Assembly (NCBI GenBank): GCA_032718475.1
Contig: JAUCBJ010006956.1
Coordinates: 62,001-126,000, forward strand
DNA length: 64,000 bases
Direction: 5' to 3'
Source of the DNA: Nemertoderma westbladi
Lineage: Eukaryota; Animalia; Xenacoelomorpha
Shown here: one piece after another, positions 6,583 through 62,018 of the stretch
Layout of the letters: every line of letters starts with the position of its first letter
How positions within the stretch are numbered: the first letter of the stretch is position 1
Translations under genes and position numbers: made by a program
Notes under the pieces: model-generated
What the model saw: the letters and a program-made list of their open reading frames with translations, nothing else
What the model was told of the DNA's origin: nothing
The model's database searches: none

Positions 6583-9500
6583 CTGGGGAAAAAAAAGTGT
6601 GGAAAAACAGTATGTTAGTAACAAAATATTATACAAACGTAACGGAATAACCCGCATGCGAAAATTCTAATACACCACATAATACATAGGGCAGCAAATA
6701 ATATTAATATTGTTGTAGACTGTATTCACCATATACTGTACAGGCCTATTATATAACAACGTCCAATAGAGTTAATAATGATAATGAAATTACCTTGGAT
6801 AACGTTAACAGAAGGACTTTCGTGGTCAGATACTTTTATATTTGGCGTCCCTTTGGTCTTTTTCTGTAGAAAACTCGGCAATGGGGGCTGGCCTGGTGGT
6901 AGACCAATATCTCCCTAGAAGTATAATATTAAAAATTGTTAATTATAATTAATAGAGCGATTTAGAATAATAATATAGTATGGAAGTAAATAGTGAATAC
7001 AGTACGAACAGTTTTCGCTATTTATTAAAATTATTCAAGTCGTTAGTGTCTTATTAAGTTTTGCACTGTTTTGTATTGGTACAAAAATTTATTGTATGTT
7101 AATGAATTAAGCCATTTATATAAATTTAAAATATATAATAAAATAAATATAATTAAATATTAATTAATTAAAAATAATATAAAGAATAATATATAATATA
7201 AATTTCAGTTATACTGCAGGCAGAGTTATAAAAGGCAGATAGACAGACATACTGTAGCAATAAGTTAATTACTTACCGATGGAATTGATTGCTGAAAAAG
7301 AAATAAAAAATATAATCGAAAAATGCTATACGTACTTTGCTATTTGTGAGATTACAGAATTACCATAATACACTACTGTATGTTAAAAAATACAGTTTTT
7401 CCTCCTTCCCAACCCACTTGCATTCCACTCCCTTGTTAAGGAGGAGGGGGGGGGGGGGGGGGGGGGGTGTTAAGTAATTAACTAGAAATTATTTTATCCA
7501 AATTTATTGATGTTTTTCATACGTATAATTTTTCAAATAAATTAACACAATTTATGTAATTGGCACGTAACACTTTAAGCCGAAAAAAGTGGTCAAAACA
7601 TAAAAGTTTTCAAAAGCATGACATATACATATTTCGAAAGCTCAGAATTGTCTCTTTTTTTTAGTGCTAATCAGAGATAAAGCTAATTAAAACAGGACAA
7701 ATTAAAAAATAAAATGTGGTAAAATTTTACAAATCTGTCTCCCAGACTACAAATCTCAGACAAGTCTACGCTCGACAAGACTACATTTTGTAGTCTTGTA
7801 CAACTTCCAAGACTACATTGTAACCTTGGAAACTTGCTTATTACACATTATTTCATCTTTAAGCCCTTCGTACCTACTATTAAGTTCATTCAATACACTA
7901 TTATTGATTAGACTAAATCAAACAATTACCATTTAATTTAAATTTAATTTAAAATCCGGGATACGCCCCGGCGCTATATTAGATCTCTTAAATTAATTAA
8001 AAGAGTTAAAATGTGTTATATACGGAGCCCAGGAAGGGAAATGGGCTCCGTAGATACAACAGATATAGATGGACATGTAAAAATTAACGGAACTCTACAG
8101 AGCTCTACATAAATAGTCTCGGAATTTTTTTATAGCCTTGAATGTTGATTTCCAAGGAAAAACTTGTCTCAATATTTCGCGTAGTTGTAATAAACGTTAA
8201 CCCAATTTCATACCGCTAATAGATATGATATTTTGGAAGGTTCCATCAAATAGAACATAAAATTTTAGTATAGAAAAATTATATATGAAATATAATACTG
8301 AAATTTCAAGATATAATTTTTTTATGCAAAGAAGATGTTACAGAGGTTTTTCGACACATATATAATTTCCTTACACTTTATACTTGGGTTTCCTGTCGCG
8401 ATAAAATCGAAGGAAATGTACTGCAAGTAGTTTTACTGAACTGCAAATTATATGAGGATCACATGGGTATGTTATATATTTGCTAAACTTGTTTTTAATT
8501 CTTCATTTTCGATATATTATGACGCCACCTCTTCTAAAACAACACAAATTTTATTGACATGTCTACGTTTTTATGTATTTTTAGATTTACTTTCTCATGT
8601 TGTGTATAATTAAATTTGTGCTACAATTTTACAATTTATATATGTTAAAGATAAAAAAATTAGCTTTCGAACGATACTTGAATGACATAAATCCGTTTGG
8701 CAGTTAAGATTTTACAACTTTGACCAAAATCTTGGACATTTAATTCCTTAAAGTGTTACGTGCCGATTACATATTTTTAAAATGCAAAGGATCTTAGATG
8801 GATGGCTAGAATGTCATAATTTGTGCACAATGGGGTCATGAAACGACTGTATGAATTTTGATAAATGCTCCAGTTCAAAAATTATTTAAAAAATATTTTT
8901 TTCGACACATTTTGCAATTGTTACCTAAATTTGACACTTTTGACATATTTCAGCGACCGTGACCAAAATTTAAAAAGTGGTCATAGGTGGTGTTAGGCAC
9001 CCAGTCATCATTTATGCCAAATTTCACGTAAATTAGTTATTTTTTGGTAAAGCCTTTGCAATTTGAAATTTATAAAATGCATTCGCCAGAAAATCTATTT
9101 CAAGTATAATATGGTTAGGGTAAATAGGTTTGTTCATTGAAATGTTAGATATGTAAAGTACACCCAGTTAAACATTTTGTTGCAAGGGTTTTCTTTTGTT
9201 CGAGTGTGCCATATCCTGTCACTCACTCCTTACCTTCCGTTTCGGTTTGGTTTCTGTCCGAGTGTGCCTTATCCTGTCACTCACTCCTTACCTTCCGTTT
9301 CGGTTTGGTTTCTGTCCGAGTGTGCCTTATCCTGTCACTCACTCCTTACCTTCCGTTTCGGTTTGGTTTCTGTCCGAGTGTGCCTTATCCTGTCACTCAC
9401 TCCTTACCTTCCGTTTCGGTTTGGTTTCTGTCCGAGTGTGCCTTATCCTGTCACTCACTCCGTACCTTCTGATTCGGTTTGGTTTCTGTCCGAGTGTGCC

Positions 9501-12500
9501 TTATCCTGTCACTCACTCCTCACCTTCCGTTTCGGTTTGGTTTTTGTCCGAGTGTGCCTTATCCTGTCACTAACTCCTTACCTTCCGTTTCGGTTTGGTT
9601 TCTGTCCGAGTGTGCCCTATCCTGTCACTCACTCCTTACCTTCCGTTTCGGTTTGGTTTCTGTCCGAGTGTGCCTTATCCTGTCACTCACTCCTTACCTT
9701 CCGTTTCGGTTTGGTTTCTGTCCGAGTGTGCCTTATCCTGTCACTCACTCCTCACCTTCCGTTTCGGTTTGGTTTTTGTCCGAGTGTGCCTTATCCTGTC
9801 ACTAACTCCTTACCTTCCGTTTCGGTTTGGTTTCTGTCCGAGTGTGCCTTATCCTGTCACTCACTCCTTACCTTCCGTTTCGGTTTGGTTTCTGTCCGAG
9901 TGTGCCCTATCCTGTCACTCACTCCTTACCTTCCGTTTCGGTTTGGTTTCTGTCCGAGTGTGCCTTATCCTGTCACTCACTCCTTACCTTCCGTTTCGGT
10001 TTGGTTTCTGTCCGAGTGTGCCTTATCCTGTCACTCACTCCTTACCTTCCGTTTCGGTTTGGTTTCTGTCCGAGTGTGCCTTATCCTGTCACTCACTCCT
10101 TACCTTCCGTTTCGGTTTCTGTCCGAGTGTGCCATATCCTGTCACTCACTCCTTACCTTCCGTTTCGGTTTGGTTTCTGTCCGAGTGTGCCTTATCCTGT
10201 CACTCACTCCTTACCTTCCGTTTCGGTTTGGTTTCTGTCCGAGTGTGCCTTATCCTGTCACTCACTCCTTACCTTCCGTTTCGGTTTGGTTTCTGTCCGA
10301 GTGTGCCTTATCCTGTCACTCACTCCTTACCTTCCGTTTCGGTTTGGTTTCTGTCCGAGTGTGCCTTATCCTGTCACTCACTCCTTACCTTCCGTTTCGG
10401 TTTGGTTTCTGTCCGAGTGTGCCTTATCCTGTCACTCACTCCTTACCTTCCGTTTCGGTTTGGTTTCTGTCCGAGTGTGCCTTATCCTGTCACTCACTCC
10501 TTACCTTCCGTTTCGGTTTGGTTTCTGTCCGAGTGTGACTTATCCTGTCACTCACTCCTTACCTTCCGTTTCGGTTTGGTTTCTGTCCGAGTGTGCCTTA
10601 TCCTGTCACTCACTCCTTACCTTCCGTTTCGGTTTGGTTTCTGTCCAAGTGTGCCTTATCCTGTCACTCACTCCTTACCTTCCGTTTCGGTTTGGTTTCT
10701 GTCCGAGTGTGCCTTATCCTGTCACTCATTCCTTACCTTCCGTTTCGGTTTGGTTTCTGTCCGAGTGTGCCTTATCCTGGCACTCACTCCTTACCTTCCG
10801 TTTCGGTTTGGTTTCTGTCCGAGTGTGCCTTATCCTGGCACTCACTCCTTACCTTCCGTTTCGGTTTGGTTTCTGTCCGAGTGTGCCTTATCCTGTCACT
10901 CACTCCTTACCTTCCGTTTCGGTTTGGTTTCTGTCCGAGTGTGCCTTATCCTGTCACTCACTCCTTACCTTCCGTTTCGGTTTGGTTTTTGTCCGAGTGT
11001 GCATTCCCCTTCCACTCCCTCCACTGCGTTTTCTCGCATGGCCTTTCCCCTTTCCATCCTTATCGGTATCATCATCATCTTCGTCACGTTTCCGTAAAAG
11101 TTCAATAACCTCGTAGCGAAACGCCGAAATATCCTGAATAAAAGAAACGAAAGACGAACAAATTAACGTAATACGGGAAAACTTATTGGTTAATCAAATC
11201 GTTATTATCAAAAAATCCAGATTACGTAATATTAATTGCGAAAATTATTTCGTTAATTACAGCTAATACGCTACAATTATATAAAGTGCTAGTTTAAACG
11301 ATGTGAAGAAAATATAATTATTACACCGGTAAAAAGTATGCAATATTTTGTAAAATTTGAAGATATTATGACATCGATAAATTATATTATTACTTTCATC
11401 TCCATAGTCCAGCCCTTGAGCATGATTGGATTTAACGGTCAGGATAAATAAATGTATTAATATTATTTTGAGTACCTCAACACAGTCACTATAGTAACGG
11501 TTCTTCTACATAAATAACCTGTTTAATCTCATTGAGGTCGTCCTCTGTAACTGGTTTAATATCAGCACTCCGCTTCATGCTAGCTATGTAACGCTTCACT
11601 AAGTTACGGATCACTTCCTGTTAGTCGGGTTATTGTAAGAGAAATAAAGGGTTAATTATTGAATTTATAAGGGGATGAGATTGGTTAGTAAGGTAGTAAA
11701 GTGTTAATTGTAAAGGTCATTATGGTTAATAATTAAACCTCTATTTTGGGTACAAGTTAGTTATTATGTTAGATTATTTTATTAAGTGTTAATCGAAATA
11801 TTAGGTGGTTTCAATTAATCAGAAATAAATAATAAAACTTCCTCCAATGCTAGGTGCTATGGAAGTAGAAAGTGACAACTTGGAGTGAATTAAACTCATT
11901 TTTCCCGAACCTGTTTTATCTCGTTTAAATCGTCCTCTGTTACGGGATGAATATCGGCGTTTCGTTTTACCGAGATTATGTAACGCTTCACAATGTTGCT
12001 CATTACATCCTTGTTGTAATTAATTAGGTCATTAAATAAATAAAAATTGAATATTAATACGCAAAAATAATGCTATACGTAATGGCATTAAGTGATAACA
12101 AAAGTAATGTAATAATTATAACTATAGCGAATATTTATCTCTACTATACAATAGGTCCGTACCTGGTACTTTCTATCCGAATCTGCTAATTTCGTGGCGA
12201 GTTTCGTAATATTCCTTAGTCGATCTCCTTTCATTCCACCCGGAACCATGCGGAGGGCTACCCATTTACCGAAGTAGAAGAACGATTTGGGACTGGGGAT
12301 GATGTTAAATGGGGGTGGTAAGGTGGCCCCGTCGTCAAAGTAACTCATCCACAGACGAGAGCGAGCGAACTTCCATTCCACATCCGCGTGATCCTAAACA
12401 ACAACCTTATAATGACTTCCCCGTACACTGTACAGTAACTCTACCACGCTACAAAGTACAATAACTCCTCCAAGCTATACTCTACAGTGACTCTACCTTG

Positions 12501-15500
12501 CTACAAAGTACAATAACTCCTCCAAGCTATACTTTACTGTAACTCTACCTTGCTACAAAGTACAATAACTCCTCCAAGCTATACTCTACAGTAACTCTAC
12601 CTTGCTACAAAGTACAATAACTCCTCCAAGCTATACTCTACAACAACTCTACCTTGCTACAAAGTACAATAACTCATCCAAGCTATACTTTACTGTAACT
12701 CTACCTTGCTACAAAGTACAATAACTCCTCCAAGCTATACTCTACTGTAACTCTACCTTGCTACAAAGTACAATAACTCCTCCAAGCTATATTCTACAGT
12801 TACTCTACCTTGCTACAAAGTATAATAACTCCTCCAAGCTATACTTTACTGTAACTCTACCTTGCTACAAAGTACAATAACTCCTCCAAGCTATACTCTA
12901 CAGTAACTCTACCTTGCTACAAAGTACAATAACTCCTCCAAGCTATACTCTACTGTAACTCTACCTTGCTACAAAGTACAATAACTCCTCCAAGCTATAC
13001 TCTACAATAACTCTACCTTGCTACAAAGTACAATAACTCATCCAAGCTATACTTTACTGTAACTCTACCTTGCTACAAAGTACAATAACTCCTCCAAGCT
13101 ATACTCTACAATAACTCTACCTTGCTACACAGTCCAATAACTCCTCCAAGTTATACTCTAAGGTAACTCTACCTTGCTACAAAGTACAATAACTCATCCA
13201 AGTTATACTTTACTGTAACTCTACCTTGCTACAAAGTACAATAACTCCTCCAAGCTATATTCTACAGTAACTCTACCTTGCTACAAAGTACAATAACTCC
13301 TCCAAGCTATACTCTACAGTAACTCTACCTTGCTACAAAGTACAATAACTCCTCCAAGCTATACTCTACAATAACTCTACCTTGCTACAAAGTACAATAA
13401 CTCCTCCAAGCTATACTCTACTGTAACTCTACCTTGCTACAAAGTACAATAACTCCTCCAAGCTATACTCTACAATAACTCTACCTTGCTACAAAGTACA
13501 ATAACTCCTCCAAGCTATACTCTACAATAACTCTACCTTGCTACTAAGTACAATAACTCCTCCAAGCTATACTCTACAGTGACTCTACCTTGCTACAAAG
13601 TACAATAACTCATCCAAGCTATACTTTACTGTAACTCTACCTTTGCACAAAGTACAATAACTCATCCAAGCTATGCTTTACTGTAACTCTACCTTGCTAC
13701 AAAGTACAATAACTCCTCCAAGCTATACTCTACAATAACTCTACCTTGCTACACAGTACAATAACTCCTCCAAGTTATACTCTAAGGTAACTCTACCTTG
13801 CTACAAAGTACAATAACTCATCCAAGCTATACTTTACTGTAACTCTACCTTGCTACAAAGTACAATAACTCCTCCAAGCTATACTCTACAATAACTCTAC
13901 CTTGCTACACAGTACAATAACTCCTCCAAGCTATACTCTACTGTAACTCTACCTTGCTACAAAGTACAATAACTCCTCCAAGCTATACTCTACAATAACT
14001 CTACCTTGCTACACAGTACAATAACTCCCCCAAGCTATACTCTACAATAACTCTATACCTTGCTACAAAGTACAATAACTCCCCCAAGCTATACTCTACA
14101 ATAACTCTACCTTGCTACAAAGTACAATAACTCATCCAAGCTATACTTTACTGTAACTCTACCTTGCTACAAAGTACAATAACTCCTCCAAGCTATACTC
14201 TACAATGACTCTACCTTGCTACAAAGTACAATAACTCCTCCAAGCTATACTCTACAATAACTCTACCTTGCTACAAAGTACAATAACTCCTCCAAGCTAT
14301 ACTCTACAATAACTCTACCTTGCTACACCTTGCTACAAAGTACAATAACTCCTCCAAGCTATACTCTACAATAACTCTACCTTGCTACACCTTGCTACAA
14401 AGTACAATAACTCCTCCAAGCTATACTCTACAGTGACTCTACCTTGCTACAAAGTTCAATAACTCCTCCAAGCTATACTCTACAATAACTCTACCTTGCT
14501 ACACCTTGCTACAAAGTACAATAACTCCTCCAAGCTATACTCTACAGTGACTCTACCTTGCTACAAAGTACAATAACTCCTCCAAGCTATACTCTACAAT
14601 AACTCTACCTTGCTACACCTTGCTACAAAGTACAATAACTCCTCCAAGCTATACTCTACAGTGACTCTACCTTGCTACAAAGTACAATAACTCCTCCAAG
14701 CTATACTTTACTGTAACTCTACCTTGCTACAAAGTACAATAACTCTTCCAAGCTATACTCTACAATAACTCTACCTTGCTACAAAGTACAATAACTCACC
14801 CAAGCTATACTTTACTGTAACTCTACCTTGCTACAAAGTACAATAACTCCTCCAAGCTATACTCTACAATAACTCTACCTTGCTACAAAGTACAATAACT
14901 CCTCCAAGCTATACTCTACAATAACTCTACCTTGCTACAAAGTACAATAACTCATCCAAGCTATACTTTACTGTAACTCTACCTTGCTACAAAGTACAAT
15001 AACTCCTCCAAGCTATACTCTACAATAACTCTACCTTGCTACACAGTACAATAACTCATCCAAGCTATACTTTACTGTAACTCTACCTTGCTACAAAGTA
15101 CAATAACTCCTACAAGCTATACTTTACAATAACTCTACCTTGCTACAAAGTACAATAACTCCTCCAAGCTTTACTTTACTGTAACTCTACCTTGCTACAA
15201 AGTACAATAACTCCTCCAAGCTATACTCTACAGTAACTCTACTTTGCTACAAAGTACAATAACTCCTCCAAGCTATACTCTACAGTAACTCTACCTTGCT
15301 ACAAAGTACAATAACTCATCCAAGTTATACTCTACAATAACTCTACCTTGCTACACAGTACAATAACTCCTCCAAGTTATACTCTAAGGTAACTCTACCT
15401 TGCTACAAAGTACAATAACTCATCCAAGCTATACTTTACTGTAACTCTACCTTGCTACAAAGTACAATAACTCCTCCAAGCTATACTCTACAGTAACTCT

Positions 15501-18500
15501 ACCTTGCTACAAAGTGCAATAACTCCTCCAAGCTATACTCTACAGTAACTCTACCTTGCTACAAAGTACAATAACTCCTCCAAGCTATACTTTACTGTAA
15601 CTCTACCTTGCTACAAAGTAAAATAACTCCTCCAAGCTGTACTCTACAGTAACTCTACCTTGCTACAAAGTACAATAACTCCTCCAAGCTATACTTTACT
15701 GTAACTCTACCTTGCTACAAAGTACAATAACTCCTCCAAGCTATACTCTACAGTAACTCTACCTTGCTACAAAGTACAATAACTCATCCAAGCTATACTT
15801 TACTGTAACTCTACCTTGCTACAAAGTACAATAACTCATCCAAGCTATACTTTACTGTAACTCTACCTTGCTACAAAGTACAATAACTCCTCCAAGCTAT
15901 ACTCTACAGTGACTCTACCTTGCTACAAAGTACAATAACTCCTCCAAGCTATACTCTACAGTAACTCTACCTTGCTACAAAGTACAATAACTCCTCCAAG
16001 CTATCCTCTACAGTAACTCTACCTTGCTACAAAGTACAATAACTCATCCAAGTTATACTCTACAATAACTCTACCTTGCTACACAGTACAATAACTCCTC
16101 CAAGTTATACTCTAAGGTAACTCTACCTTGCTACAAAGTACAATAACTCATCCAAGCTATACTTTACTGTAAATCTACCTTGCTACAAAGTACAATAACT
16201 CCTCCAAGCTATACTCTACAGTAACCCTACCTTGCTACAAAGTGCAATAACTCCTCCAAGCTATACTCTACAGTAACTCTACCTTGCTACAAAGTACAAA
16301 AACTCCTCCAAGCTATATTTTACTGTAACTCTACCTTGCTACAAAGTACAATAACTCCTCCAAGCTATACTCTACAGTGACTCTACCTTGCTACAAAGTA
16401 CAATAACTCTTCCAAGCTATACTTTACTGTAACTCTACCTTGCTACAAAGTACAATAACTCCTCCAAGCTATACTCTACAGTAACTCTACCTTGCTACAA
16501 AGTACAATAACTCCTCCAAGCTATACTCTACAGTAACTCTACCTTGCTACAAAGTACAATAACTCCTCCAAGCTATACTTTACTGTAACTCTACCTTGCT
16601 ACAAAGTGCAATAACTCCTCCAAGCTATACTCTACAGTAACTCTACCTTGCTACAAAGTACAATAACTCCTCCAAGCTATACTTTACTGTAACTCTACCT
16701 TGCTACTAAGTACAATAACTCCTCCAAGCTATACTCTACAGTGACTCTACCTTGCTACAAAGTACAATAACTCTTCCAAGCTATACTTTACTGTAACTCT
16801 ACCTTGCTACAAAGTACAATAACTCCTCCAAGCTATACTCTACAGTAACTCTACCTTGCTACAAAGTACAATAACTCCTCCAAGCTATACTCTACAGTAA
16901 CTCTACCTTGCTACAAAGTACAATAACTCCTCCAAGCTATACTTTACTGTAACTCTACCTTGCTACAAAGTACAATAACTCCTCCAAGCTATCTAAACTA
17001 TACCGGGTACATGCCGTATTGGTTTGATTACCAATTATGTTGACACATTTCTTAATAGATTCCGTAAAGCTATTCTATGAGCAGGCTGCCGGGAAATAAA
17101 GCCGCTTGCTAGTACAATTATTTATCTTCCCATGGGATAAAGTCTAATATACAATACATACATAAAAATAATATTCCTAAAATACACTTTAAGAATTACT
17201 AAAATAATAACAATATTAATTATAAGTGTTTGCCACCCGGAATTTCAATACTAACATTAATCAAAACAACAACAGAAAGGGAGTTTAGGTCGTATGCCTA
17301 ATACTTACCATAAAGCATAATAGCTTACATTGTAAATAACATTAACTGAGCAACATATAATATGTAAACAACTAAATCTGCGAACAATAACATTTACCGC
17401 AAAATTAATTTCGATTCTGTTGAGAAGGCAAAAGAAATGTTTAAAAAAACACCCAACCATCATAATGTAATTACTTATTATTAGATATCTACCGATACAA
17501 TTAATTTATATTTATTAAATAAACAAACGTTTACAATTTTGCCACTTACCGATATATAAAAATATTTATACTACCGTGACGTAATACACCAACATACCAG
17601 GATATTTTGGTAAGAATTACTCATCATTGCAATAAGCATGTTGAGTAATACAATGATGGAGAATATATGGTAGGAGGCGTACATAGCACCCCCGAGGATC
17701 TCGTTGAAGTAGTGAGATTTGTAGTTTAATAGCTCCGCCTCGTCTTTGACGGAGAAGAACCTTATGACGTGGATGGAAACCAGTCCGTAGAGAGTCCAGT
17801 AGAGAGACCAGATAGTGCCCGGGAGACTGGAAGACAGACGGGGTATTAGAAAGATGTTGCAATCTGAGTTCGAACTATCTATAACCACATCCACGGAAGA
17901 AGTCAGGTTGAAGGGTGTTAGTTGGTGGAGAGATGAACGGAGGGTAGAACATCGTCAAAATGTCATCGGAGTTAGTTAGTATGTTAGTTATGTATTAATG
18001 GTAAATGGCAATGATTGTTATTGCAAACGATGGGTAAAATACTACCAGGCCTATATGAATAATTATGGTAAAATTGTGACGAAATATATTATTTAGGGCA
18101 AATGACAGAAACGATAAGATGCAACACAAGCAACATATATTATCGCATCTACAAAATAAGAAAGCACTCTACCGGCTACAAAATAAGCAAGCAATCTATC
18201 GGTTACAAAATAAGCAAGCAATCTACCGGCTACAAAATAAGCAAGCAATCTACCGGCTACAAAATAAAATATTGCAGTAAAATATTGTCCGCTGGGATAA
18301 AGGGCTTCACTTTACCACACAATAATCATCACTTCCTATTGGTTAAAATGTTCAAAACTTACTAACTGATAGAGCCTGTTGAATTGTACAAAAAAGTAAA
18401 AGCTGACAAAAATCGACTTATGAACTTATGATACTTAATCTACGATAAGTGCCTCAGGGAAGCCAATTAGCACATTTTACCTAATTAAGAATTTAAGAAC

Positions 18501-33500: not shown

Positions 33501-36500
33501 AAACTAAGTGAACACGCAGTTCCGAGTGTCTAGGTTTCTTACCAATTACAAAACTCATAACAAAAAACTCCACGTAGGAAGGGAGAGTTTCGGCGTCGTG
33601 TTTGTCTCGATGCCCGAAGGTGGAGATAGTCGGGTCACTGGCCAATCCGAGACAGACGAGGAAAATAATGAACGCCGCATTGTGATTAACAAACTTAACA
33701 AAGGGACTCCGAAAAAACTCGCCCACCTAAATAGGAAACATTAAATTAATCTAGTGACGTTGTAACATAAGGATATAGTCTAGTAGACTTACCTATGACG
33801 AAAGATAACATAAACCATTCGAGAGGGTGTGGTCTGACGTAGCCGTGGTAACTTTGTCCGAAGGTGGATGATGTAGAGCTGCCAGTCACCAATACACACG
33901 TCAAAAAGATAAAGAAGCAGGCGTTGTGATTGAGAAATTTTACGAAGGGGCCGGTGAGAAAAACTCCTAACTGAAAGACATTGGGATTATGTTATTGTAT
34001 ATGTAGGACTAACTACAAGGACGCCTCATGGGTTTTAACAATGTCATGATCCTCGTGTGTATCTCCGTTCTCGTTTATTTTATATCTTTGCACTCGTTTA
34101 CTTTATATCTTTGCACTCGTTTACTTTATATCTTTGCACTCGTTTACTTGGCATCTTTGCACTCGTTTACTTTATATCTTTACACTCGTTTACTTTATAT
34201 AATTGCACTCGTTTACTTTATATCTTTGCACTCGTTTACGTTATATCTTTGCACTCGTTTACTTTATATCTTTGCACTCGTTTACTTGGCATCTTTGCAC
34301 TCGTTTACTTTATATCTTTACACTCGTTTACTTTATATAATTGCACTCGTTTACTTTATATCTTTACACTCGTTTTCTTTATATAATTGCACTCGTTTAC
34401 TATATATTTTTGTACTCGTTAAACATACCACTGGTGCTTACGCACTCGGTCGGCACACTTTAAGGTGCTATTTTACAGTTGTACAAAAGTATGTAAATAG
34501 TATAACATCACATTATATACTACATTTAGTTACCATGGTTTTCGGGGCTGCAAGGTACATAATCGCCGTAAAGGGGAGGGAACATAAACAAGCGAAAAGA
34601 ATTCCGAGTTTCATTGGTCCGTTTCCTCGTCTCCACCCGGGCATCCCCTCGTACCAAATACTGGCCAACAATTGCTGACAATTTGGATGAGCCACAAACT
34701 AAAAACATAACAGCAACGGATTAGATACATACAAATATTCAAATTAGATATTCTGGCGCCTAGAAGGATAATTGAGAAGTTATTAACAAATAAACACAGA
34801 CGTCTGGTTATTATCTTTGTTGACTTTATTAAACCCTTCGACTCATTCTCCCGACCATGTATAACATAATTGCAGCATTTGGGATTCCTAAGAAAATTAT
34901 AGCAGCTATCAGATCACTATACGATGGTTCCACCACATTTGTGTCTACTGCTGATGGTGACACAGATCCATTCGAAGTCTTATGAGGAATCCTTCAGGGT
35001 GACGCACTTGCACCATTCTTATTCTTAATTGTGGTTGATTATGTTCTACACATGTCCGTAGACCATCATAATAAACAAAACGTACCGCACGTTACGCAAA
35101 ACGTAACATAAGCTTAATGGATCAGATTGCTTCTAGTGTTGGTCTTTTTGTAAACTCCAAGAAGACCAAAATTATGACAGTCTTGACAGCCCTCCAGAAA
35201 TGTCTGATCGTAAGAGCATAATTTACAGGGATGACTTGCTTGAGCACGTGGATGACTTCTGCTACTTGGGATCATGGATCAGAAAGTCAGATGAAGAGAT
35301 TCGGATATGTAAGGGGAAGGCATGGGCTAGGCAGCGTTAGATAGTCTGTCCAGGATTTGGAAGTCGCATAGAATAAAACAGAATCTTAAGGTTCAATTAT
35401 TAAGGGCAGCAGTAGTACCAGTTCTCTTATGAGAGTCCATGCTGGGCTCTAACTGCAGAGGATACCAAATCTCTGGATGGCACTTTCACAAGCATGCTGG
35501 GCCAGGTTCATTGTATCAAGAACAATGAATACATCTCCAATCAGACACTATATACAACATTTGAGGTCCGCCTCCGCTTTGTAGGACATTTCTTTCGCCG
35601 CGAGGACCAGCCAGTGCATAATCTAGTGCTTTGGTGGCCTCATGAAGTGAATAAGCATGGTGGACATCACACGACTTTCTTGAGACACATCTTAAAGGAC
35701 ACTGGCCTAGAAGATGCGGATGATCTAACAAATATCATGGGTGATAGGGAATTGTGGTGGCGCATATTGTCGACAAACCGGCCGGACATTATTAATATAT
35801 ATGTAATGTATATAATGTATAGCTGCAATGCAGCATGCCGATATAGTTTAGTAGTAATTGCAGCTTTTTTCCAAGGATACTTCTTGATTACAAACAATAC
35901 AGTGTTACACACTAGTGGCGACATTCCTGGGTTTCCAATTAGGAAGCCCTGGTTCGATTCCTAGATGGGGTAGCACTGTTTGGGCACAGTGCTTTAAATG
36001 CTGCAGCCTAGCTCAACACATCCTTCATACTTTCATCCTTCAGTGCTCGATAAATGGGAATCAAGGCAACTTGGGAAATAGAGTGGAAGGGTTTACTGTG
36101 GAAGATCACCCGTGGTGGTGAACAGAGGCATTCCTAGGCTTAACGAGCCTAAAAGATTCTCCCATTAATTATAATAAAAATTATTAAATAAAATGCTAAA
36201 TGGAGTAGAATGATGAACAAGCTCTATTGATTTATATTAAACGTTTTACGTTTTTATAACCTAAAGATTTCAGGGTAGACCAAAGTTTTTTTTGAGGTGT
36301 CTCCTTTTAACTTATTTTATATATAAATCATAATAAGCTTTATTAACTTATCTTTGGACCAGGGTTCTAGACCTGCAGTAATTATTATAATCAGATAAAA
36401 CGCAAAAAGTTATTCCCTTTTTTCCCATGTAATACGTAATTTTATTCTTAAATTAGTACTTCTTTGTTGCTAAATTTTTTAATAAAAGAAAGAGCGATTA

Positions 36501-37687
36501 GTGTTACTAAATAAATTGAACTGCAGTAATTTAGTACTGCCGGTATATTGTTGCCATAGTTACTGTACAGTTGAAATTCCTTCACATTCACACTCTTCAA
36601 CTGCTGATGTAACAAAAAGTAACAATTTGAGAACAAAAATAATAATTCACATATTATGAACGTCAATGTTTCAACTAACATCTTTCTGTCGGTACTGAAT
36701 GGCGAGTTTAAGGCGACATAAGGCCATCTTTTTGTTTCCCTCCTGTTCCGATTGGTCCTCCTGGTCTTCGAGCTCAGACGGGTCGGTTGTCCGGTTCAAT
36801 AGAATTCGCAACTCCTTCGATCCCCGAGTTTGTCCCAATATGTCAACCGCAAACTTACTACACTGCGCCTCCAACTCTATATAATCGTTGCGAAATTCCG
36901 TTTCTATTTTACTGTAAATAAACAATTTCATTTTATACAATTTTAAACAATTTAAAGGTTTATAAGTTACCTATATACTGTATAAATACAGTAAATAATT
37001 CCGTTTCTAGGTTACCCACAGCAAATAATGAATTCAGTTTCTGTTTTTAACTCTATTTCGGTTTTCAAATTACCTATTGTGAATAAACAATTCAGTGTCT
37101 GTGTTGCTATCCGGGTTGGAAGTTCCAACCCGGAGGTCACCAGTTCGATCCCACCTGGACGTAATTGCAGACTTTGCAAAAGCTGTGCCCAACAAAAAGT
37201 TATAACTATTTCTTGTCTTACCTTAAGGTACGGAGTTCCCAACTCAACTCGAAGGCTGTTAAGACAGGATCGTCACTGGCGAGGCACATAAGGGAGGGAC
37301 AGGAGAGAGCGCGATAGGCATTGATACGGGTTCGGGAATGTCGCAATCCGTCGAACGTGGCACTGTGAACGCATTCGTAGCAACCGCACTAATAAATAAA
37401 TATATTATAAGCTGTTAGTAGAACTTCTTAATTATAAGATACGCAATAAATACTTATATATAAATGTATGTATAATAAGATCAATCGATAACTGGGTGTA
37501 TAAAACAATAATTACAATATAGTTATAGAATATAAGAAATGATTCACACCTTTACACTATGGGGTTTCACTATTGTGGCAGAACGTTGGATTAGAATTTT
37601 TACAATTTCGTAATTATTTTTATGGGCAGCGAGAATGATTGGCGTAATATCGGGAGTGAAGTCAGATTCCTTCTTGGCGCCCGGCAT
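4055..37687 (-). CDS. TRPC: TRPC-family cation channel (TRPC4/5/TRPgamma-like), multi-exon, 5' part (ANK1-3) not found in window
   Basis: Hand-spliced exons give ordered TRPC hallmarks: [13 protein letters not shown] (ANK4), H..C.C..C zinc site, [48 protein letters not shown] pore helix, LLNMLIAMM (S6), EWKFAR and [13 protein letters not shown] (TRP boxes), [18 protein letters not shown] (coiled coil). All junctions are GT-AG with compatible phases. Confidence 0.96.
4885..5130 (-). repeat. Coding 42-bp tandem repeat (14 aa, [14 protein letters not shown]), about 5-6 copies
   Basis: Repeated tttctttgctttatcatctaccttcactgctgtatcatctgc; visible in the ORF translation. Confidence 0.85.
6794..6914 (-). 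CDS. TRPC: TRPC exon (121 nt, [40 protein letters not shown])
   Basis: tacttctag acceptor and gtaatt donor; open frame; phase 0 in, phase 1 out, matching the terminal exon. Confidence 0.8.
7277..7291 (-). CDS. TRPC: Putative 15-nt TRPC microexon (QSIPS)
   Basis: ttttttatttctttttcag|CAATCAATTCCATCG|gtaagt: strong acceptor, consensus donor, frame-preserving. Confidence 0.6.
7555..8771. mobile_element. Non-autonomous DNA transposon (MITE-like) with about 25-bp TIRs and TA flanks
   Basis: Left end TGTAATTGGCACGTAACACTTTAAG, right end CTTAAAGTGTTACGTGCCGATTACA (one mismatch). TA at 7553-7554 and 8772-8773. No ORF. Confidence 0.75.
9198..11002. repeat. 58-bp minisatellite (about 31 copies) spanning a TRPC exon/intron donor junction
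   Basis: Minus-strand unit GCACACTCGGACAGAAACCAAACCGAAACGGAAG|GTAAGGAGTGAGTGACAGGATAAG = last 34 nt of exon 10969-11133 plus first 24 nt of the intron. Confidence 0.95.
10969..11133 (-). CDS. TRPC: TRPC exon (165 nt, [22 protein letters not shown]...KTKPKRK), end of coiled coil
   Basis: ttttattcag acceptor, AAG|gtaagg donor; DIS.FRYE is the conserved TRPC coiled-coil motif. Confidence 0.92.
11519..11617 (-). CDS. TRPC: TRPC coiled-coil exon, downstream copy ([33 protein letters not shown])
   Basis: 99 nt, cag acceptor and gt donor, phase 0/0; conserved RNLVKRY and TEDD.NEIKQ motifs. Confidence 0.9.
11911..12009 (-). CDS. TRPC: TRPC coiled-coil exon, upstream copy ([33 protein letters not shown])
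   Basis: 99 nt, aag acceptor and gt donor; same length and phase as 11519-11617 and paralogous to it. Confidence 0.8.
12163..12393 (-). CDS. TRPC: TRPC TRP-domain exon ([37 protein letters not shown]...KYQ)
   Basis: 231 nt; TRP box 1 EWKFAR and box 2 LPPPFN; gtttag acceptor, gtacgg donor. Confidence 0.97.
12430..16993. repeat. 52-bp minisatellite (about 87 copies; dimer of related 26-mers)
   Basis: Unit aactctaccttgctacaaagtacaat + aactcctccaagctatactctacagt; ends about 35 nt from the acceptor of the TRP-domain exon. Confidence 0.95.
17598..17826 (-). CDS. TRPC: TRPC pore-helix/filter/S6 exon, downstream copy ([21 protein letters not shown]...[25 protein letters not shown])
   Basis: 229 nt, tgtcttccag acceptor, gtatgt donor, phase 2 in and phase 0 out. 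Confidence 0.92.
18150..18270. repeat. 27-bp tandem repeat, about 4 copies
   Basis: accggctacaaaataagcaagcaatct repeated. Confidence 0.8.
19173..19407 (-). CDS. TRPC: TRPC pore-helix/filter/S6 exon, upstream copy ([21 protein letters not shown]...[25 protein letters not shown])
   Basis: 235 nt, ctctacacag acceptor, gttagt donor; phases identical to 17598-17826. Confidence 0.92.
19673..20005. repeat. 111-bp tandem repeat, 3 copies
   Basis: aactactttgccgaacttataaagtttcaacgg... recurs at about 19681, 19792 and 19903. Confidence 0.85.
20102..20268 (-). CDS. TRPC: TRPC S5 and turret exon ([25 protein letters not shown]...[16 protein letters not shown])
   Basis: 167 nt, phase 0 in and 2 out; the C.G..C pair corresponds to the TRPC4/5 extracellular CKGIRC disulfide. 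Confidence 0.95.
20440..24435. repeat. 24-bp minisatellite (about 165 copies)
   Basis: Unit actcaacttgcc(tg/ac)taccaaacat; degenerates toward 20440 and abuts the next array at about 24433. Confidence 0.95.
24433..29783. repeat. 42/45-bp minisatellite (about 120 copies) beginning at a TRPC donor site
   Basis: Unit ccccaactccctatgaacct(cac)2-3cgggtatctgccgtca; on the minus strand it starts inside the donor CAG|GTGAGTTGGGG. Confidence 0.95.
29785..29958 (-). CDS. TRPC: TRPC S3-S4 loop/S4/S4-S5 linker exon ([58 protein letters not shown])
   Basis: 174 nt, phase 0/0; conserved [12 protein letters not shown]. Confidence 0.96.
29940..31381. repeat. 48-bp minisatellite (about 30 copies) spanning a TRPC intron/exon acceptor junction
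   Basis: Minus-strand unit TACTTTCTGTTTTGGTTTACCGTTTGTAG|GGTTGGCACGACCCCGATT = polypyrimidine tract and AG plus the first 19 nt of exon 29785-29958. Confidence 0.95.
32272..32411 (-). CDS. TRPC: TRPC S2-S3 exon ([46 protein letters not shown])
   Basis: 140 nt, phase 1 in and 0 out; W.EIK..W and WWN.LDF.MNSLY motifs; gtaagt donor. Confidence 0.96.
32770..33100 (+). mobile_element. Degenerate RTE-clade LINE fragment
   Basis: Shares ttgcttctagtgttggtctttttgt and gatgacttctgct..ttg.gatcatggatc with the RT fragment at 35140-35290. Confidence 0.6.
33543..33726 (-). CDS. TRPC: TRPC S1 exon, downstream copy ([30 protein letters not shown]...[13 protein letters not shown])
   Basis: 184 nt, ttcctatttag acceptor, gtaaga donor, phase 0 in and 1 out; PFVKF motif. 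Confidence 0.92.
33793..33970 (-). CDS. TRPC: TRPC S1 exon, upstream copy ([30 protein letters not shown]...[13 protein letters not shown])
   Basis: 178 nt, tgtctttcag acceptor, gtaagt donor, same phases as 33543-33726; absent from the ORF track. Confidence 0.9.
34068..34420. repeat. 23-bp tandem repeat, about 15 copies
   Basis: ctcgtttactttatatctttgca repeated. Confidence 0.9.
34534..34698 (-). CDS. TRPC: TRPC pre-S1 exon ([24 protein letters not shown]...YLAAPKTM)
   Basis: 165 nt, phase 0/0; [11 protein letters not shown] motif. Confidence 0.96.
34740..35790 (+). mobile_element. Degenerate RTE-clade LINE reverse-transcriptase fragment
   Basis: Broken frames read [60 protein letters not shown]; contains stops, frameshifts and an internal deletion. 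Confidence 0.8.
35905..36150 (+). mobile_element. Possible degenerate tRNA-derived SINE
   Basis: B-box GGTTCGATTCC at about 35951, preceded by an A-box-like tagtggcg; no intact cloverleaf. Confidence 0.4.
36680..36911 (-). CDS. TRPC: TRPC linker-helix exon ([39 protein letters not shown]...[14 protein letters not shown])
   Basis: 232 nt, phase 2 in and 0 out; E.EF..DY and RLKLAI.Y.QK motifs. Confidence 0.95.
37222..37388 (-). CDS. TRPC: TRPC zinc-binding/TRP_2 exon ([55 protein letters not shown])
   Basis: 167 nt, phase 0 in and 2 out; gtaaga donor; absent from the ORF track. Confidence 0.96.
37550..37687 (-). CDS. TRPC: TRPC ankyrin-4 exon ([46 protein letters not shown])
   Basis: 138 nt; the strong ttcctttttcag acceptor indicates an internal exon. 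Confidence 0.95.
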
Positions 37688-37887
37688 CTGAAAAAGGAAC
37701 AAATCAGATATAATACTCGTTGGAGGAAATAAATTAAAAAGTAAACCGAAGAAGCTTTTTAAAGGCCAAATAATTATTGTATTTATTTCAAAATCATTAA
37801 GACGTGTGTGAAATCGAAGCATAAATCCCCCCCCCCCCCCATATTAAATAGCCTGTGAGATGAGCTCCAACATGAAATATAGAAGGA

Positions 37888-40800
37888 TTGAATCCCATAT
37901 CCGCCTTCTTGCCGCCCCACTCACATTGAATCCCATATCCGCCTTCTTGCCGCCCCACTCACATTGAATCCCATATCGGCCTTCTTGCCGCCCTACTCAC
38001 ATTGAATCATGGGATTCAATGTGAGTAGGGCGGCAAGAAGGCCATATCCGCCTTTTTGCCGCCCTACTCACATTGAATCCCATATCCGCCTTCTTGCCGC
38101 CCTACTCACATTGAATCCCATATCCGCCTTCTTGCCGCCCCACTCACATTGAATCCCATATCCGCCTTCTTGCCGCCCCACTCACATTGAATCCCATATC
38201 CGCCATCATGCCGCCCCACTCACATTGAATCCCATATCCACCTTCTTGCCGCCCTACTCACATTGCATCCCATATCCGCCATCATGCCGCCCCACTCACA
38301 TTGAATCCCATATCCACCTTCTTGCCGCCCTACTCACATTGCATCCCATATCCGCCATCATGCCGCCCCACTCACATTGAATCCCATATCCACCTTCTTG
38401 CCGCCCTACTCACATTGAATCCCATATCCGCCTTCTTGCCGCCCCATTCACATTGAATCCCATATCCGCCTTCTTGCCGCCCTACTCACATTGAATCCCA
38501 TATCCGCCTTCTTACCACCCTACTCACATTGAATCCCATATCCGCCTTCTCGCCGCCCCACTCACATTGAATCCCATATCCGCCTTCTTTCCGCCCCACT
38601 CACATTGAATCCCATATCCGCCTACTTGCCGACCTACTCACATTGCATCCCATATCCGCCATCATGCCGCCCTACTCACATTGAATCCCATATCCGCCTT
38701 CTTGCCGCCCCATTCACATTGAATCCCATATCCGCCTTCTTGCCGCCCTACTCACATTGAATCCCATATCCGCCTTCTTAACACCCTACTCACATTGAAT
38801 CCCATATCCGCCTTCTTGCCGCCCTACTCACATTGAATCCCATATCCGCCTTCTTACCACCCCATTCACATTGAATCCCATATCCGCCTTCTTACCACCC
38901 TACTCACATTGAATCCCATATCGGCCTTCTTGCCGCCCCACTCACATTGAATCCCATATCAGCCTTCATGCCGCCATACTCACATTAAATCCCATATCCG
39001 CCTTCTTGCCGCCCCACTCACATTGAATCCCATATCCGCCTTCTTGCCGCCCCACTCACATTGAATCCCATATCCGCCTTCTTGCCGCCCCACTCACATT
39101 GAATCCCATATCCACCTTCTTACCACCCTACTCACATTGAATCCCATATCCGCCTTCTTGCCGCCCCACTCACATTGAATCCCATATCCGCCTTCTTACC
39201 ACCCTACTCACATTGAATCCCATATCCGCCTTCTTGCCGCCCCACTCACATTGAATCCCATATCCACCTTCTTACCACCCTACTCACATTGAATCCCATA
39301 TCCGCCTTCTTGCCGCCCTACTCACATTGCATCCCATATCCGCCTTCTTGCCGCCCTACTCACATTGAATCCCATATCCACCTTCTTACCACCCTACTCA
39401 CATTGAATCCCATATCAGCCTTCTTACCACCCTACTCACATTGAATCCCATATCCGCCTTCTTGCCGCCCCACTCACATTGAATCCCATATCCGCCTTCT
39501 TACCACCCTACTCACATTGAATCCCATATCCACCTTCTTACCACCCTACTCACATTGAATCCCATATCAGCCTTCTTACCACCCTACTCACATTGAATCC
39601 CATATCCGCCTTCTTGCCGCCCTACTCACATTGAATCCCATATCCGCCTTATTACCACCCCATTCACATTGAATCCCATATCCGCCTTCTTACCACCCTA
39701 CTCACATTGAATCCCATATCCGCCTTCTTACCACCCCACTCACATTGAATCCCATATCCGCCTTCTTACCACCCTACTCACATTGAATCCCATATCGGCC
39801 TTCTTGCCGCCCTACTCACATTGAATCCCATATCCGCCTTCTTGCCGCCCTACTCACATTGAATCCCATATCCGCCTTCTTGCCGCCCTACTCACATTGA
39901 ATCCCATATCAGCCTTCTTACCACCCTACTCACATTGAATCCCATATCCGTTCTTACCACCCTACTCACATTGAATCCATATCCGCCTTCATGCCGCCCT
40001 ACTACATTGAATCCCATATCCGCCTTCTTACCGCCCTACTCACATTGAATCCCATATCCACCTTCTTACCATCCTACTCACATTGAATCCCATATCCGCC
40101 TTCTTACCACCCCATTCACATTGAATCCCATATCCGCCTTCTTACCACCCTACTCACATTGAATCCCATATCCGCCTTCTTACCACCCTACTCACATTGA
40201 ATCCCATATCAGCCTTTTTACCACCCCATTCACATTGAATCCCATATCCGCCTTCTTACCACCCTACTCACATTGAATCCCATATCCGCCTTCTTACCAC
40301 CCTACTCACATTGAATCCCATATCCGCCTTCTTACCACCCCATTCACATTGAATCCCATATCCGCCTTCTTACCACCCTACTCACATTGAATCCCATATC
40401 AGCCTTCTTGCCACCCCACTCACATTGCATCCCATATCCACCTTCTTACCATCCTACTCACATTGAATCCCATATCCGCCTTCTTGCCGCCCCACTCACA
40501 TTGCATCCCATATCCACCTTCTTACCATCCTACTCACATTGAATCCCATATCCGCCTTCTTGCCGCCCTACTCACATTGAATCCCATATCCGCCTTCTTA
40601 CCACCCTACTCACATTGAATCCCATATCAGCCTTCTTGCCACCCTACTCACATTGCATCCCATATCCGCCTTCTTACCATCCTACTCACATTGAATCCCA
40701 TATCCGCCTTCTTGCCGCCCCACTTCACATTGAATCCCATATCCGCCTTCTTACCACCCTACTCACATTGAATCCCATATCCGCCTTCTTACCACCCTAC

Positions 40801-42420
40801 TCACATTGAATCCCATATCCGCCTTCTTACCACCCTACTCACATTGAATCCCATATCCGCCTTCTTACCACCCCATTCACATTGAATCCCATATCCGCCT
40901 TCTTACCACCCTACTCACATTGAATCCCATATCAGCCTTCTTGCCACCCTACTCACATTGAATCCCATATCCGCCTTCTTACCACCCTACTCACATTGAA
41001 TCCCATATCAGCCTTGTTGCCACCCTACTCACATTGAATCCCATATCCGCCTTCTTACCACCCTACTCACATTGAATCCCATATCAGCCTTCTTGCCACC
41101 CTACTCACATTGAATCCCATATCCGCCTTCTTACCACCCTACTCACATTGAATCCCATATCCGCCTTCTTGCCGCCCCACTCACATTGCATCCCATATCC
41201 ACCTTCTTACCACCCTACTCACATTGAATCCCATATCCGCCTTCTTACCACCCTACTCACATTGAATCCCATATCAGCCTTCTTGCCGCCCCACTCACAT
41301 TGCATCCCATATCCACCTTCTTACCATCCTACTCACATTGAATCCCATATCCGCCTTCTTACCACCCTACTCACATTGAATCCCATATCAGCCTTCTTGC
41401 CGCCCCACTCACATTGCATCCCATATCCACCTTCTTACCACCCTACTCACATTGAATCCCATATCCGCCTTCTTACCACCCTACTCACATTGAATCCCAT
41501 ATCAGCCTTCTTACCACCCCATTCACATTGAATCCCATATCCGCCTTCTTACCACCCTACTCACATTGAATCCCATATCCGCCTTCTTGCCGCCCCACTC
41601 ACATTGCATCCCATATCCACCTTCTTACCACCCTACTCACATTGAATCCCATATCCGCCTTCTTACCACCCTACTCACATTGAATCCCATATCAGCCTTC
41701 TTGCCACCCTACTCACATTGCATCCCATATCCACCTTCTTACCATCCTACTCACATTGAATCCCATATCCGCCTTCTTACCACCCTACTCACATTGAATC
41801 CCATATCAGCCTTCTTGCCACCCTACTCACATTGAATCCCATATCCGCCTTCTTGCCGCCCCACTCACATTGCATCCCATATCCACCTTCTTACCACCCT
41901 ACTCACATTGAATCCCATATCCGCCTTCTTGCCGCCCCATTCACATTGAATCCCATATCCGCCTTCTTGCCGCCCTACTCACATTGAATCCCATATCCGC
42001 CTTCTTGCCGCCCTACTCACATTGAATCCCATATCCGCCTTCTTACCACCCTACTCACATTGAATCCCATATCCGCCTTCTTGCCGCCCTACTCACATTG
42101 AATCCCATATCCGCCTTCTTACCACCCTACTCACATTGAATCCCATATCAGCCTTCTTGCCACCCTACTCACATTGAATCCCATATCCGCCTTCTTGCCG
42201 CCCCACTCACATTGCATCCCATATCCACCTTCTTACCACCCTACTCACATTGAATCCCATATCCGCCTTCTTGCCGCCCTACTCACATTGAATCCTATAT
42301 CCGCCTTCTTACCACCCTACTCACATTGAATCCCATATCCGCCTTCTTGCCGCCCTACTCACATTGAATCCCATATCCGCCTTCTTGCCGCCCCACTCAC
42401 ATTGATTCCCATATCCGCCA
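37888..42420. repeat. 38-bp minisatellite (about 119 copies) with one inverted unit
   Basis: Unit attgaatcccatatccgccttcttgccgccc(c/t)actcac; inverted copy at 38009-38043. Confidence 0.95.
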
Positions 42421-46900: not shown

Positions 46901-46980
46901 TTACATAGTAATACATACATAAATATAAAAATGATAAAATAATATAAAATAATAGAGTCACACACCCACTCCATATGTTG

Positions 46981-61856: not shown

Positions 61857-62018
61857 TGTCTTTTCCGTAATACGGTATAATTATTAATTATTGCATATAT
61901 TTCAGAATTTATCCGGTATTAACAAAGTCAGGCAGTCCAGTGCAGTATTTGTCTGAAACAGCAAATTCACAGCTATAGTAGCACCAGGTGCTGTAGGCCT
62001 ACTAATAATAATTAAGAA

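What the first reader, a model, noticed from the sequence alone, without database searches (positions are those of the whole stretch)
9198..42420. Locus-wide pattern: unrelated minisatellites nucleate at exon boundaries
Seen: six large arrays with unrelated units (58, 52, 24, 42/45, 48, 38 bp; about 22 kb in total). Two span splice sites, one starts inside a donor hexamer, one ends about 35 nt from an acceptor, and two end about 170-200 nt from acceptors. Units derive from local sequence, not from a shared satellite family. Five of six are G-richer than C on the transcribed-sense strand. Inference: a transcription- or splicing-coupled duplication process (R-loops or pausing at junctions) may inflate introns, and may be the same process that produced the duplicated exons.
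Basis: inference. Interest (0 to 1): 0.72.

Follow-up and report, generated by a model that had tools for sequence, protein, structure and literature searches.

The report
Mirage minisatellites inflate TRPC introns
In an animal ion-channel gene, six unrelated short sequences are repeated head-to-tail over 22 kb of introns, two of them copying an exon edge with its splice signal about 30 times, yet the spliced RNA seen uses the copy next to the exon, so these are likely harmless examples of a repeat type known from lancelets and humans, and the proposed link to transcription is untested.

Summary
The six arrays are real (21.6 kb) and lie in introns of a minus-strand TRPC4/5-type gene. Two straddle a splice site, one starts 2 nt inside a donor, and the rest end 33, 199 and 229 nt from an acceptor. 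Spliced contigs from one run use the exon-proximal copy. Distal copies would run into stop codons. The two straddling arrays are "mirage" minisatellites, known from amphioxus and human F7. This scan has noted such arrays before on other pieces of this genome (unchecked notes).

The junction excess is only nominal once arrays are collapsed to one unit: 3 of 6 touch a site against 0.75 expected (p about 0.03; 0.05 GC-matched; 0.11 with three small arrays added). The duplicated exons are far older (46-76% amino-acid identity), so a shared process is unsupported. Most likely: ordinary DNA-level duplication and expansion, tolerated by splice-site choice. A transcription-linked bias remains open (about 0.28).

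The parts
4055..37687 (-). TRPC4/5-type channel gene, exons a-o (3' part; residues 1-136 of bird TRPC5 have no match in the window, so the 5' exons likely lie beyond 64000)
   Evidence: Open 1584-aa frame through 15 exons; TRPC5/TRPC4/TRP-gamma hits; Ank, TRP_2, Ion_trans; tblastn; six exon joints seen in run X4
9197..11002 (-). A1: 58-bp x31 donor 'mirage'; unit = last 34 nt of exon l + first 24 nt of intron; 28 exact copies of the donor 9-mer
   Evidence: X4 splices at 10969, the first copy; read-through stops at codon 5
10969..11133 (-). exon l, whose donor is copied in A1
12427..16992 (-). A2: 52-bp x87 intronic minisatellite, ends 33 nt before the acceptor of exon j, 605 nt after donor i2
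   Evidence: both ends in DNA runs of two samples
20498..24434 (-). A3: 24-bp x163 intronic minisatellite, most degenerate (83% matches), abuts A4, ends 229 nt before the acceptor of exon h
24435..29782 (-). A4: 42/45-bp x121 minisatellite starting at +3 of the donor of exon g; internal copies lack the GT in that register; possibly a decayed donor mirage (inconclusive)
   Evidence: anchored similarity to exon end p=0.08-0.27; X4 splices at 29785
29785..29958 (-). exon g, bracketed by A5 and A4
29939..31380 (-). A5: 48-bp x30 acceptor 'mirage'; unit = intron end with pyrimidine tract and AG + first 17-20 nt of exon g; 3-nt microhomology at the ends
   Evidence: 28 of 29 exact acceptor copies lead to an in-frame stop, the last does not; X4 splices at the last copy
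37887..42419 (-). A6: 38-bp x119.5 intronic minisatellite, ends 199 nt before the acceptor of exon a; holds a short inverted piece near 38040
33543..33970 (-). duplicated exon pair e1/e2 (46% aa identity)
17598..19407 (-). duplicated pore/S6 exon pair i1/i2 (46% aa identity)
   Evidence: i1 joined to j in X4
11519..12009 (-). duplicated exon pair k1/k2 (76% aa identity)
   Evidence: k2 joined to l in X4

Best explanation
Six independent, locus-specific minisatellites have inflated the small introns of a TRPC channel gene; they likely arose by ordinary DNA-level duplication of 24-58 bp of local sequence followed by slippage or unequal exchange, and the two that copy a splice site ('mirages') are likely tolerated because splicing takes the copy next to the exon, as seen in one run's spliced contigs. 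Shown: the arrays, their positions, the local origin of A1 and A5, 2.6-fold intron inflation, use of the proximal site at exons l and g, and stop codons behind the distal copies. Inferred: birth by replication slippage or repair at short microhomology; growth by slippage and unequal exchange; removal of rare distal-site transcripts by nonsense-mediated decay. Also inferred: the mild crowding at exon edges comes mainly from small ancestral introns (about 1 in 7 random 50-bp units would touch a site), a preference for GC-rich, strand-skewed seeds, loss of frame-breaking duplications inside exons, and the choice of a striking window.
For: Arrays and units. Unit ends lie 34 nt inside exon l and 17-20 nt inside exon g, not at junctions, and units are contiguous exon-intron DNA, which fits a DNA template. 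X4 contigs join l-m-n at 10969, f-g at 29958 and g-h at 29785. Stops follow the distal copies. Collapsed introns total 10,850 nt, median 362; P(touch) is 0.07-0.16 per array, and 0.09-0.21 GC-matched. With all nine arrays, 3 touch against 1.22 expected, p=0.11. Strong skew in either direction marks 6 of 8 large arrays against 16% of intron 40-mers (p=0.0004). Variant units come in runs and blocks, and A6 holds an inverted piece, both typical of replication or recombination turnover. X1 depth matches the window's k-mer multiplicity in 6 of 6 comparisons within about 13%, so identical units are not dispersed elsewhere. The same anatomy and normal splicing are described for amphioxus and human F7 (PMC3087553, PMC3902484, PMC1557585; passages read).
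Against: For the six large arrays the junction excess survives collapsing (3 of 6 against 0.75, p=0.028; 4 of 6 within 50 nt against 1.5, p=0.037) and GC matching only weakens it (p=0.052 and 0.030). All 9 arrays of 23-111-bp units are G>C on the sense strand while the non-array introns are unskewed (-0.017; sign test p=0.004). Neutral tolerance explains survival at junctions but not an excess there. Unchecked notes on other pieces of this genome report 3 to 7 junction arrays per gene, which, if right, small introns alone would not give. No pre-existing direct-repeat seed was shown at the array ends (1 of 12 ends with p<0.05). Splicing evidence is one run of contigs, which drop rare forms.
Confidence: 0.58

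Rival explanations
1. A transcription- or splicing-coupled lesion (polymerase pausing, R-loops or chromatin at exon edges) biases where duplications are born or which ones expand, so arrays nucleate at junctions and are G-rich on the non-template strand.
For: 3 of 6 large arrays touch a site (p 0.03-0.05) and 4 of 6 lie within 50 nt (p 0.03-0.04). 9 of 9 arrays of 23-111-bp units have G>C on the sense strand, p=0.004, against an unskewed background. Transcription predicts microsatellite mutability in yeast (PMC5814968, abstract), and co-transcriptional G4 raises instability (PMC7768239, abstract). Unchecked notes report the pattern in other genes of this genome; these are a lead only.
Against: One window, chosen because it looked striking. 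p rises to 0.09-0.13 when the small arrays are counted. The two large arrays in the inferred 5' intron are C-rich on the sense strand: 9 of 11 gives p=0.065, 6 of 8 gives p=0.29, and strongly skewed arrays split 4 to 2, p=0.69. Only A4 (16% of windows) and A6 (7%) reach G4Hunter 1.2. The two true straddlers have the weakest skews (0.23 and 0.07). Donor-like motifs are not enriched in units other than A1 (p 0.13-0.89). No R-loop data exist here.
Confidence: 0.28
2. The arrays are kept by selection because decoy splice sites or intron length tune splicing or expression of the channel.
For: Tandem repeats near human splice sites change exon inclusion (review PMC13196383 citing Hamanaka 2023; passage). 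The gene has three alternative exon pairs.
Against: Distal sites lead straight to stops. The junction-touching arrays sit on exons l and g, not on the duplicated exons. Units are unrelated. The contigs seen use proximal sites only.
Confidence: 0.06
3. The arrays come from a shared satellite family or are carried in by transposons.
For: The window holds an LTR element and a LINE, and the 9-bp and 10-bp arrays flank the LINE.
Against: Units do not align with each other (1 of 15 nominal) or with the rest of the window (best E 0.27). A1 and A5 contain this gene's coding sequence. X1 depth leaves no room for many identical copies elsewhere for A1, A2, A4 and A5; A3 and A6 were not tested by depth.
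Confidence: 0.04
4. Units were copied from RNA splicing products (lariats or circles) by reverse transcription and reinserted in tandem.
For: A4 starts within 2 nt of a donor, and LINE and LTR elements are present in the window.
Against: A1 and A5 units run across the junction with ends 17-34 nt inside exons, and units match nothing else in the window. A lariat or circle would end at the splice site (established knowledge).
Confidence: 0.03
5. The arrays are assembly artefacts.
For: No listed contig spans a whole array, and exon g is not covered by the DNA contigs.
Against: Five flank-array junctions recur in DNA runs of two samples, X1 depth matches the assembled copy numbers, and units carry structured variants.
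Confidence: 0.01

Closest known systems
Amphioxus 'mirage' minisatellites (Adh3, globins BflGb6/BflGb9, troponin C, PGBD5). Seen: matching passages of PMC3087553 and PMC3902484. The Adh3 paper (PMC117041) is not held and is known only through those citations.
   Same: Locus-specific tandem copies of an exon-intron boundary, at either donor or acceptor; unit sizes in range (Adh3 10-72 bp); many copies keep the splice signal; regular splicing is unaffected; mechanism stated as unclear.
   Different: About 30 copies here against 3-6 for BflGb6. One donor and one acceptor mirage sit in one gene alongside four non-straddling arrays of 87-163 copies. Only 2 of the 6 arrays qualify. Length instability is not shown here.
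Human F7 intron 7 37-bp VNTR, with the IFI6 (6-16), CBS, LMNB2 and PDGF arrays it cites. Seen: passages of PMC1557585.
   Same: First unit spans the donor; identical pseudo-donors follow; the most upstream site is used. This matches A1.
   Different: All the human cases listed there are donor-type, while A5 is acceptor-type. In IFI6 and CBS the next pseudo-sites are also used; this could not be checked here from contigs.
Internal tandem repeats at exon-intron boundaries in human segmental duplications (De Grassi and Ciccarelli 2009). Seen: passages of PMC2812944.
   Same: Repeats at exon edges grow by slippage or unequal crossover and reshape gene structure.
   Different: There the repeats often create new introns or alternative transcripts; here no new intron or isoform is seen.
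GC-rich, strand-asymmetric minisatellites in general (UPS29 passage in PMC7730309; the general rule is recalled, not from a call)
   Same: GC above background and strong G/C strand skew, as in A2, A3, A4 and A6.
   Different: The searches run found no paper testing skew direction against transcription for intronic minisatellites of an invertebrate.

Membership tests
Mirage minisatellite (A1, A5) | Repeat unit spans an exon-intron boundary of the host gene | tested here: met
   A1 = 34 exon + 24 intron nt; A5 = intron end + 17-20 exon nt; junctions confirmed by X4
Mirage minisatellite (A2, A3, A6) | Repeat unit spans an exon-intron boundary of the host gene | tested here: not met
   Ends lie 33, 229 and 199 nt from the nearest site
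Mirage minisatellite (A4) | Repeat unit spans an exon-intron boundary of the host gene | tested here: inconclusive
   Starts at +3 of the donor; a 6-nt match between exon end and unit end has p=0.08, anchored alignment p=0.19-0.27, unanchored p=0.25
Mirage minisatellite (A1, A5) | Many copies keep the splice signal | tested here: met
   28 exact donor 9-mers in A1; 29 exact acceptor copies in A5
Mirage minisatellite (A1, A5) | Regular splicing is not disturbed | tested here: met
   X4 contigs use the exon-proximal copy at both; one run, contigs only, so rare forms are not excluded
Mirage minisatellite (A1, A5) | Length instability between haplotypes or cells | tested here: inconclusive
   X3 depth ratios differ from the window (28.5 vs 22.1 for A1; 8.2 vs 19.6 for A5), but X2 of the same sample gives about 3.8 for A5 by subtraction, and contig depth is not a copy number
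Mirage minisatellite (A1, A5) | Concerted evolution with divergent edge copies | tested here: inconclusive
   Runs of identical variants in A5 and A1; no unit tree was built
Shared satellite DNA family | Units related to each other or dispersed at many loci | tested here: not met
   1 of 15 pairs nominal; no significant match elsewhere in the window; X1 depth fits one locus for A1, A2, A4, A5; whole genome not available
R-loop/G4-driven repeat expansion | G-rich non-template strand | tested here: inconclusive
   9 of 9 arrays of 23-111-bp units, but 9 of 11 overall and 4 of 6 among strongly skewed ones
R-loop/G4-driven repeat expansion | G4-forming potential in the unit | tested here: not met
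   0% of windows at G4Hunter 1.2 or more in A1, A2, A3, A5; 16% in A4, 7% in A6
R-loop/G4-driven repeat expansion | RNase H-sensitive hybrids and transcription-dependent instability | not testable with these tools
   Needs DRIP-seq or pedigrees
TRPC channel (host gene) | Ankyrin repeats, TRP_2 domain, Ion_trans region, similarity to TRPC4/5 | tested here: met
   (5' ankyrin exons are outside the window)

The most novel reading that the evidence does not exclude
In this animal, exon-intron junctions are genome-wide birthplaces of giant minisatellites because co-transcriptional splicing or pausing damages DNA there; arrays form with G on the non-template strand and drive intron growth, making splicing itself a mutagenic engine of genome expansion.
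Probability: 0.25. Interest if true: 0.72.

Novelty: new member of a known kind. Interest (0 to 1): 0.3.

Why it matters
As it stands, this is a dense natural example of a known repeat type, with about 30 decoy donors and about 30 decoy acceptors that the spliced contigs ignore, and introns grown 2.6-fold by locus-born repeats. How mirages arise is stated as unclear in the amphioxus work (PMC3087553). A genome this rich in them makes the question directly testable: a matched genome-wide null would show whether splice junctions are mutational hot spots for tandem duplication. If they are, it links transcription to intron growth and to intron gain by duplication. This one window cannot settle it.

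Tried and rejected
Genome-wide null: not possible, no whole genome is held. No RNA holder listed; run X4, listed as 'DNA?', shows exon-exon joints and was read as a spliced assembly. Exon g, k1 and part of j lack cover in some runs; nothing is drawn from this. Distances of about 200 nt as evidence of nucleation: rejected, since 5 of 5 within 250 nt compares with 3.0 expected, p=0.078. A3's collapsed distance of 47 nt is an artefact of collapsing A4, so the p-values that use it are too low; one search counts A3 at 229 nt. Idea that all units carry donor-like (U1-binding) motifs: only A1 is significant; p=0.13-0.89 for the other eight intronic units. A4 as a decayed donor mirage: three tests, p=0.08-0.27, inconclusive. 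Direct-repeat seeds just outside the TRF ends: 1 of 12 ends nominal. Copy-number polymorphism from contig depth: two runs of one sample disagree. Same process for exon duplication: rejected on divergence and anatomy. Lineage: best named ENY2 hits are hemichordates at 86-88%, with molluscs, annelids and amphioxus at 79-84%; not decisive, so the host is called an invertebrate animal only. PMC117041 is not held; PMC6823432 was irrelevant. Searches for a published genome-wide test of junction-straddling arrays found none; subscription journals are not covered, and no supplements were opened.
Full report
**Host gene.** The arrays lie in a minus-strand gene of the TRPC4/5 type. An 18-exon model (a-o, with three duplicated pairs) gives an open frame of 1584 aa by either path tested. 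Exon j matches TRPC5, TRPC4 and TRP-gamma structures and TRPC5 proteins. Pfam finds Ank, TRP_2 and Ion_trans in 6 of the 15 exons scanned. tblastn with three TRPC5 proteins covers exons a to l in order and finds nothing for residues 1-136, so 37688-64000 is probably one long 5' intron (inferred). No whole genome is held. ENY2 hits do not fix the lineage.

**Observation.** TRF confirms six arrays with the stated units, 21,634 bp in all. Nearest splice junctions are: A1 0 (spans donor l), A5 0 (spans acceptor g), A4 2, A2 33, A6 199 and A3 229 nt. Sense-strand GC skews are 0.23, 0.59, 0.67, 0.54, 0.07 and 0.69 for A1-A6. Units are unrelated: 1 of 15 pairs is nominal at p=0.017, and none has a significant match elsewhere in the window.

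**Reality of the arrays.** Of six runs listed, four were laid on two stretches. DNA contigs X1 (one sample) and X2/X3 (a second sample) carry both ends of A1 and A2 and the intron end of A5, with flanks matching the window. X1 depth ratios match the window's 31-mer multiplicities in 6 of 6 comparisons: 18.8/21.7, 21.9/23.2, 48.2/50, 27.7/27.8, 45.8/49.2 and 17.5/19.6. X1 may be the source sample and contig depth is a crude measure, but the match argues for real lengths and against dispersed identical copies. X3 ratios differ, hinting at length polymorphism, but X2 of the same sample disagrees with X3, so this is unproven. A3 and A6 were not examined.

**Splicing.** Run X4 is listed as 'DNA?' but shows six exon joints that match the model: k2-l, l-m, m-n, i1-j, f-g and g-h. 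At exon l it uses the first donor copy. At exon g it uses the last acceptor copy and the true donor. Read-through to a later A1 donor meets a stop at codon 5, and 28 of 29 exact A5 acceptor copies (all but the last) lead to an in-frame stop. This is one run of contigs, so rare distal use is not excluded.

**Is the junction pattern more than chance?** Collapsing each array to one unit shrinks introns a-o from 28,366 to 10,850 nt, median 362. A random unit not wholly inside an exon then touches one of the 35 junctions with probability 0.07-0.16. For the six large arrays, 3 touch against 0.75 expected (p=0.028), and 4 lie within 50 nt against 1.5 (p=0.037). Matching GC gives 0.94 expected (p=0.052) and 1.42 (p=0.030) (upstream intron set to 700 nt, A3 counted at 229 nt). 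With all nine arrays, 3 touch against 1.22 (p=0.11), or 0.9 (p=0.054) if the upstream intron is set to 5000 nt. Conditional on own intron, p=0.009-0.023 for the large arrays and 0.13 for eight arrays. Distances near 200 nt carry no signal. Two cautions: the window was picked after the fact, and transposon-like pieces in introns were not removed, which would make ancestral introns smaller and p larger. The signal is nominal, not established.

**Strand bias.** Non-array introns are unskewed (-0.017). All 9 arrays of 23-111-bp units have G>C on the sense strand (p=0.004), but the 9-bp and 10-bp arrays beside a LINE have -0.90 and -0.96, giving 9 of 11 (p=0.065) or 6 of 8 large arrays (p=0.29). 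Whether those two are transcribed with the gene is inferred. Strong skew regardless of direction is the firmer result: 6 of 8 large arrays against 16% of intron windows (p=0.0004), with direction 4 to 2 (p=0.69). GC-rich, strand-asymmetric units are ordinary for minisatellites (one example in PMC7730309, passage; the general rule is recalled). G4 potential is limited to A4 and A6, and the two true straddlers are the least skewed.

**Duplicated exons.** e1/e2, i1/i2 and k1/k2 share 28/61, 36/78 and 25/33 residues, and their flanks do not align. i1 and i2 are barely closer to each other (46%) than to bird TRPC5 (41-42%). They are old two-copy duplications of whole exons, unlike young arrays of sub-exon units, and none of the three junction-touching arrays sits on them. 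A shared process is not supported.

**Mechanism.** Unit ends lie inside exons rather than at junctions, and A5 ends in a 3-nt microhomology. Variants come in blocks and A6 holds an inverted piece. This fits DNA-templated duplication and turnover, and not copying from splicing products. Straddling duplications leave the exon and its nearest site intact, so they are neutral. I put this reading at 0.58. A co-transcriptional bias on birth or growth gets 0.28, because neutrality alone does not create an excess and the nominal signals point its way. Yeast data make it plausible (PMC5814968 and PMC7768239, abstracts and outlines only).

**Comparison with what is known.** A1 and A5 meet the definition of amphioxus 'mirages' (PMC3087553 and PMC3902484, passages), and A1 mirrors the human F7 intron 7 VNTR, where the most upstream donor wins (PMC1557585, passages). 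A2, A3 and A6 are plain intronic minisatellites; A4 is undecided. The mirage lead came from earlier notes of this scan. Of the 13 distinct notes I saw (19 exist for this genome), 12 describe such arrays on other pieces. They are unchecked and selected for being striking, so I use them as a lead, not as support; none lies near this window. Searches found no genome-wide test of junction enrichment in print, within a library that lacks most subscription journals.

**Verdict.** Observation confirmed, interpretation partly supported. New members of a known kind; interest 0.3. The open question worth a genome-wide test is why such arrays crowd at exon edges in this animal.

Noticed in passing
window 33543-33970, 17598-19407, 11519-12009 (-): Three duplicated exon pairs in one TRPC gene, including the pore/S6 exon. 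Including both e or both i copies shifts the frame by 1, so they are likely mutually exclusive. X4 shows i1-j and k2-l. Earlier unchecked notes report pore-exon duplication in octopus and other invertebrate TRPC genes. A paper search listed three papers, none evidently on this, and none was read.
   Followed up: partly
window 7277-7291 (-): A 15-nt microexon (QSIPS) is included in the X4 contig between exons l and n.
   Followed up: yes
window 42886-55128: Very young LTR retrotransposon: identical 1033-bp LTRs, TG...CA ends, 5-bp target duplication. One 1657-aa frame with DUF1759 and no RT or integrase hit, so likely a non-autonomous BEL/Pao-type element (family label recalled from DUF1759).
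   Followed up: partly
window 56864-64000: A LINE (ORF1 60924-61880, EN-RT frame 57853-60942, minus strand) sits between two purine-rich arrays with 9-bp and 10-bp units, as if inserted into, or seeding, one repeat tract.
   Followed up: no
window about 38010-38045: A short inverted copy of the unit inside A6, a sign of template switching.
   Followed up: partly
window 24434/24435: A3 and A4 abut with no spacer; A3 is more degenerate (83% against 93% matches), so one array may have formed at the edge of the other.
   Followed up: no
window 4881-5165 (-), within exon o: In-frame 21/42-bp coding repeats in an 841-aa Lys/Asp-rich C-terminal tail: an exonic array that survives because it keeps the frame.
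   Followed up: no
window 7553-8773: 27-bp inverted repeats 1.17 kb apart in intron l-m, possibly a MITE-like insertion.
   Followed up: no
window 2028-2249 (+): Last coding exon of ENY2, tail-to-tail with the TRPC gene.
   Followed up: yes
window 55696-56451 (+): 251-aa acidic frame with 27-, 72- and 84-bp coding-like repeats just outside the LTR element; only weak Pfam hits below cut-off.
   Followed up: no
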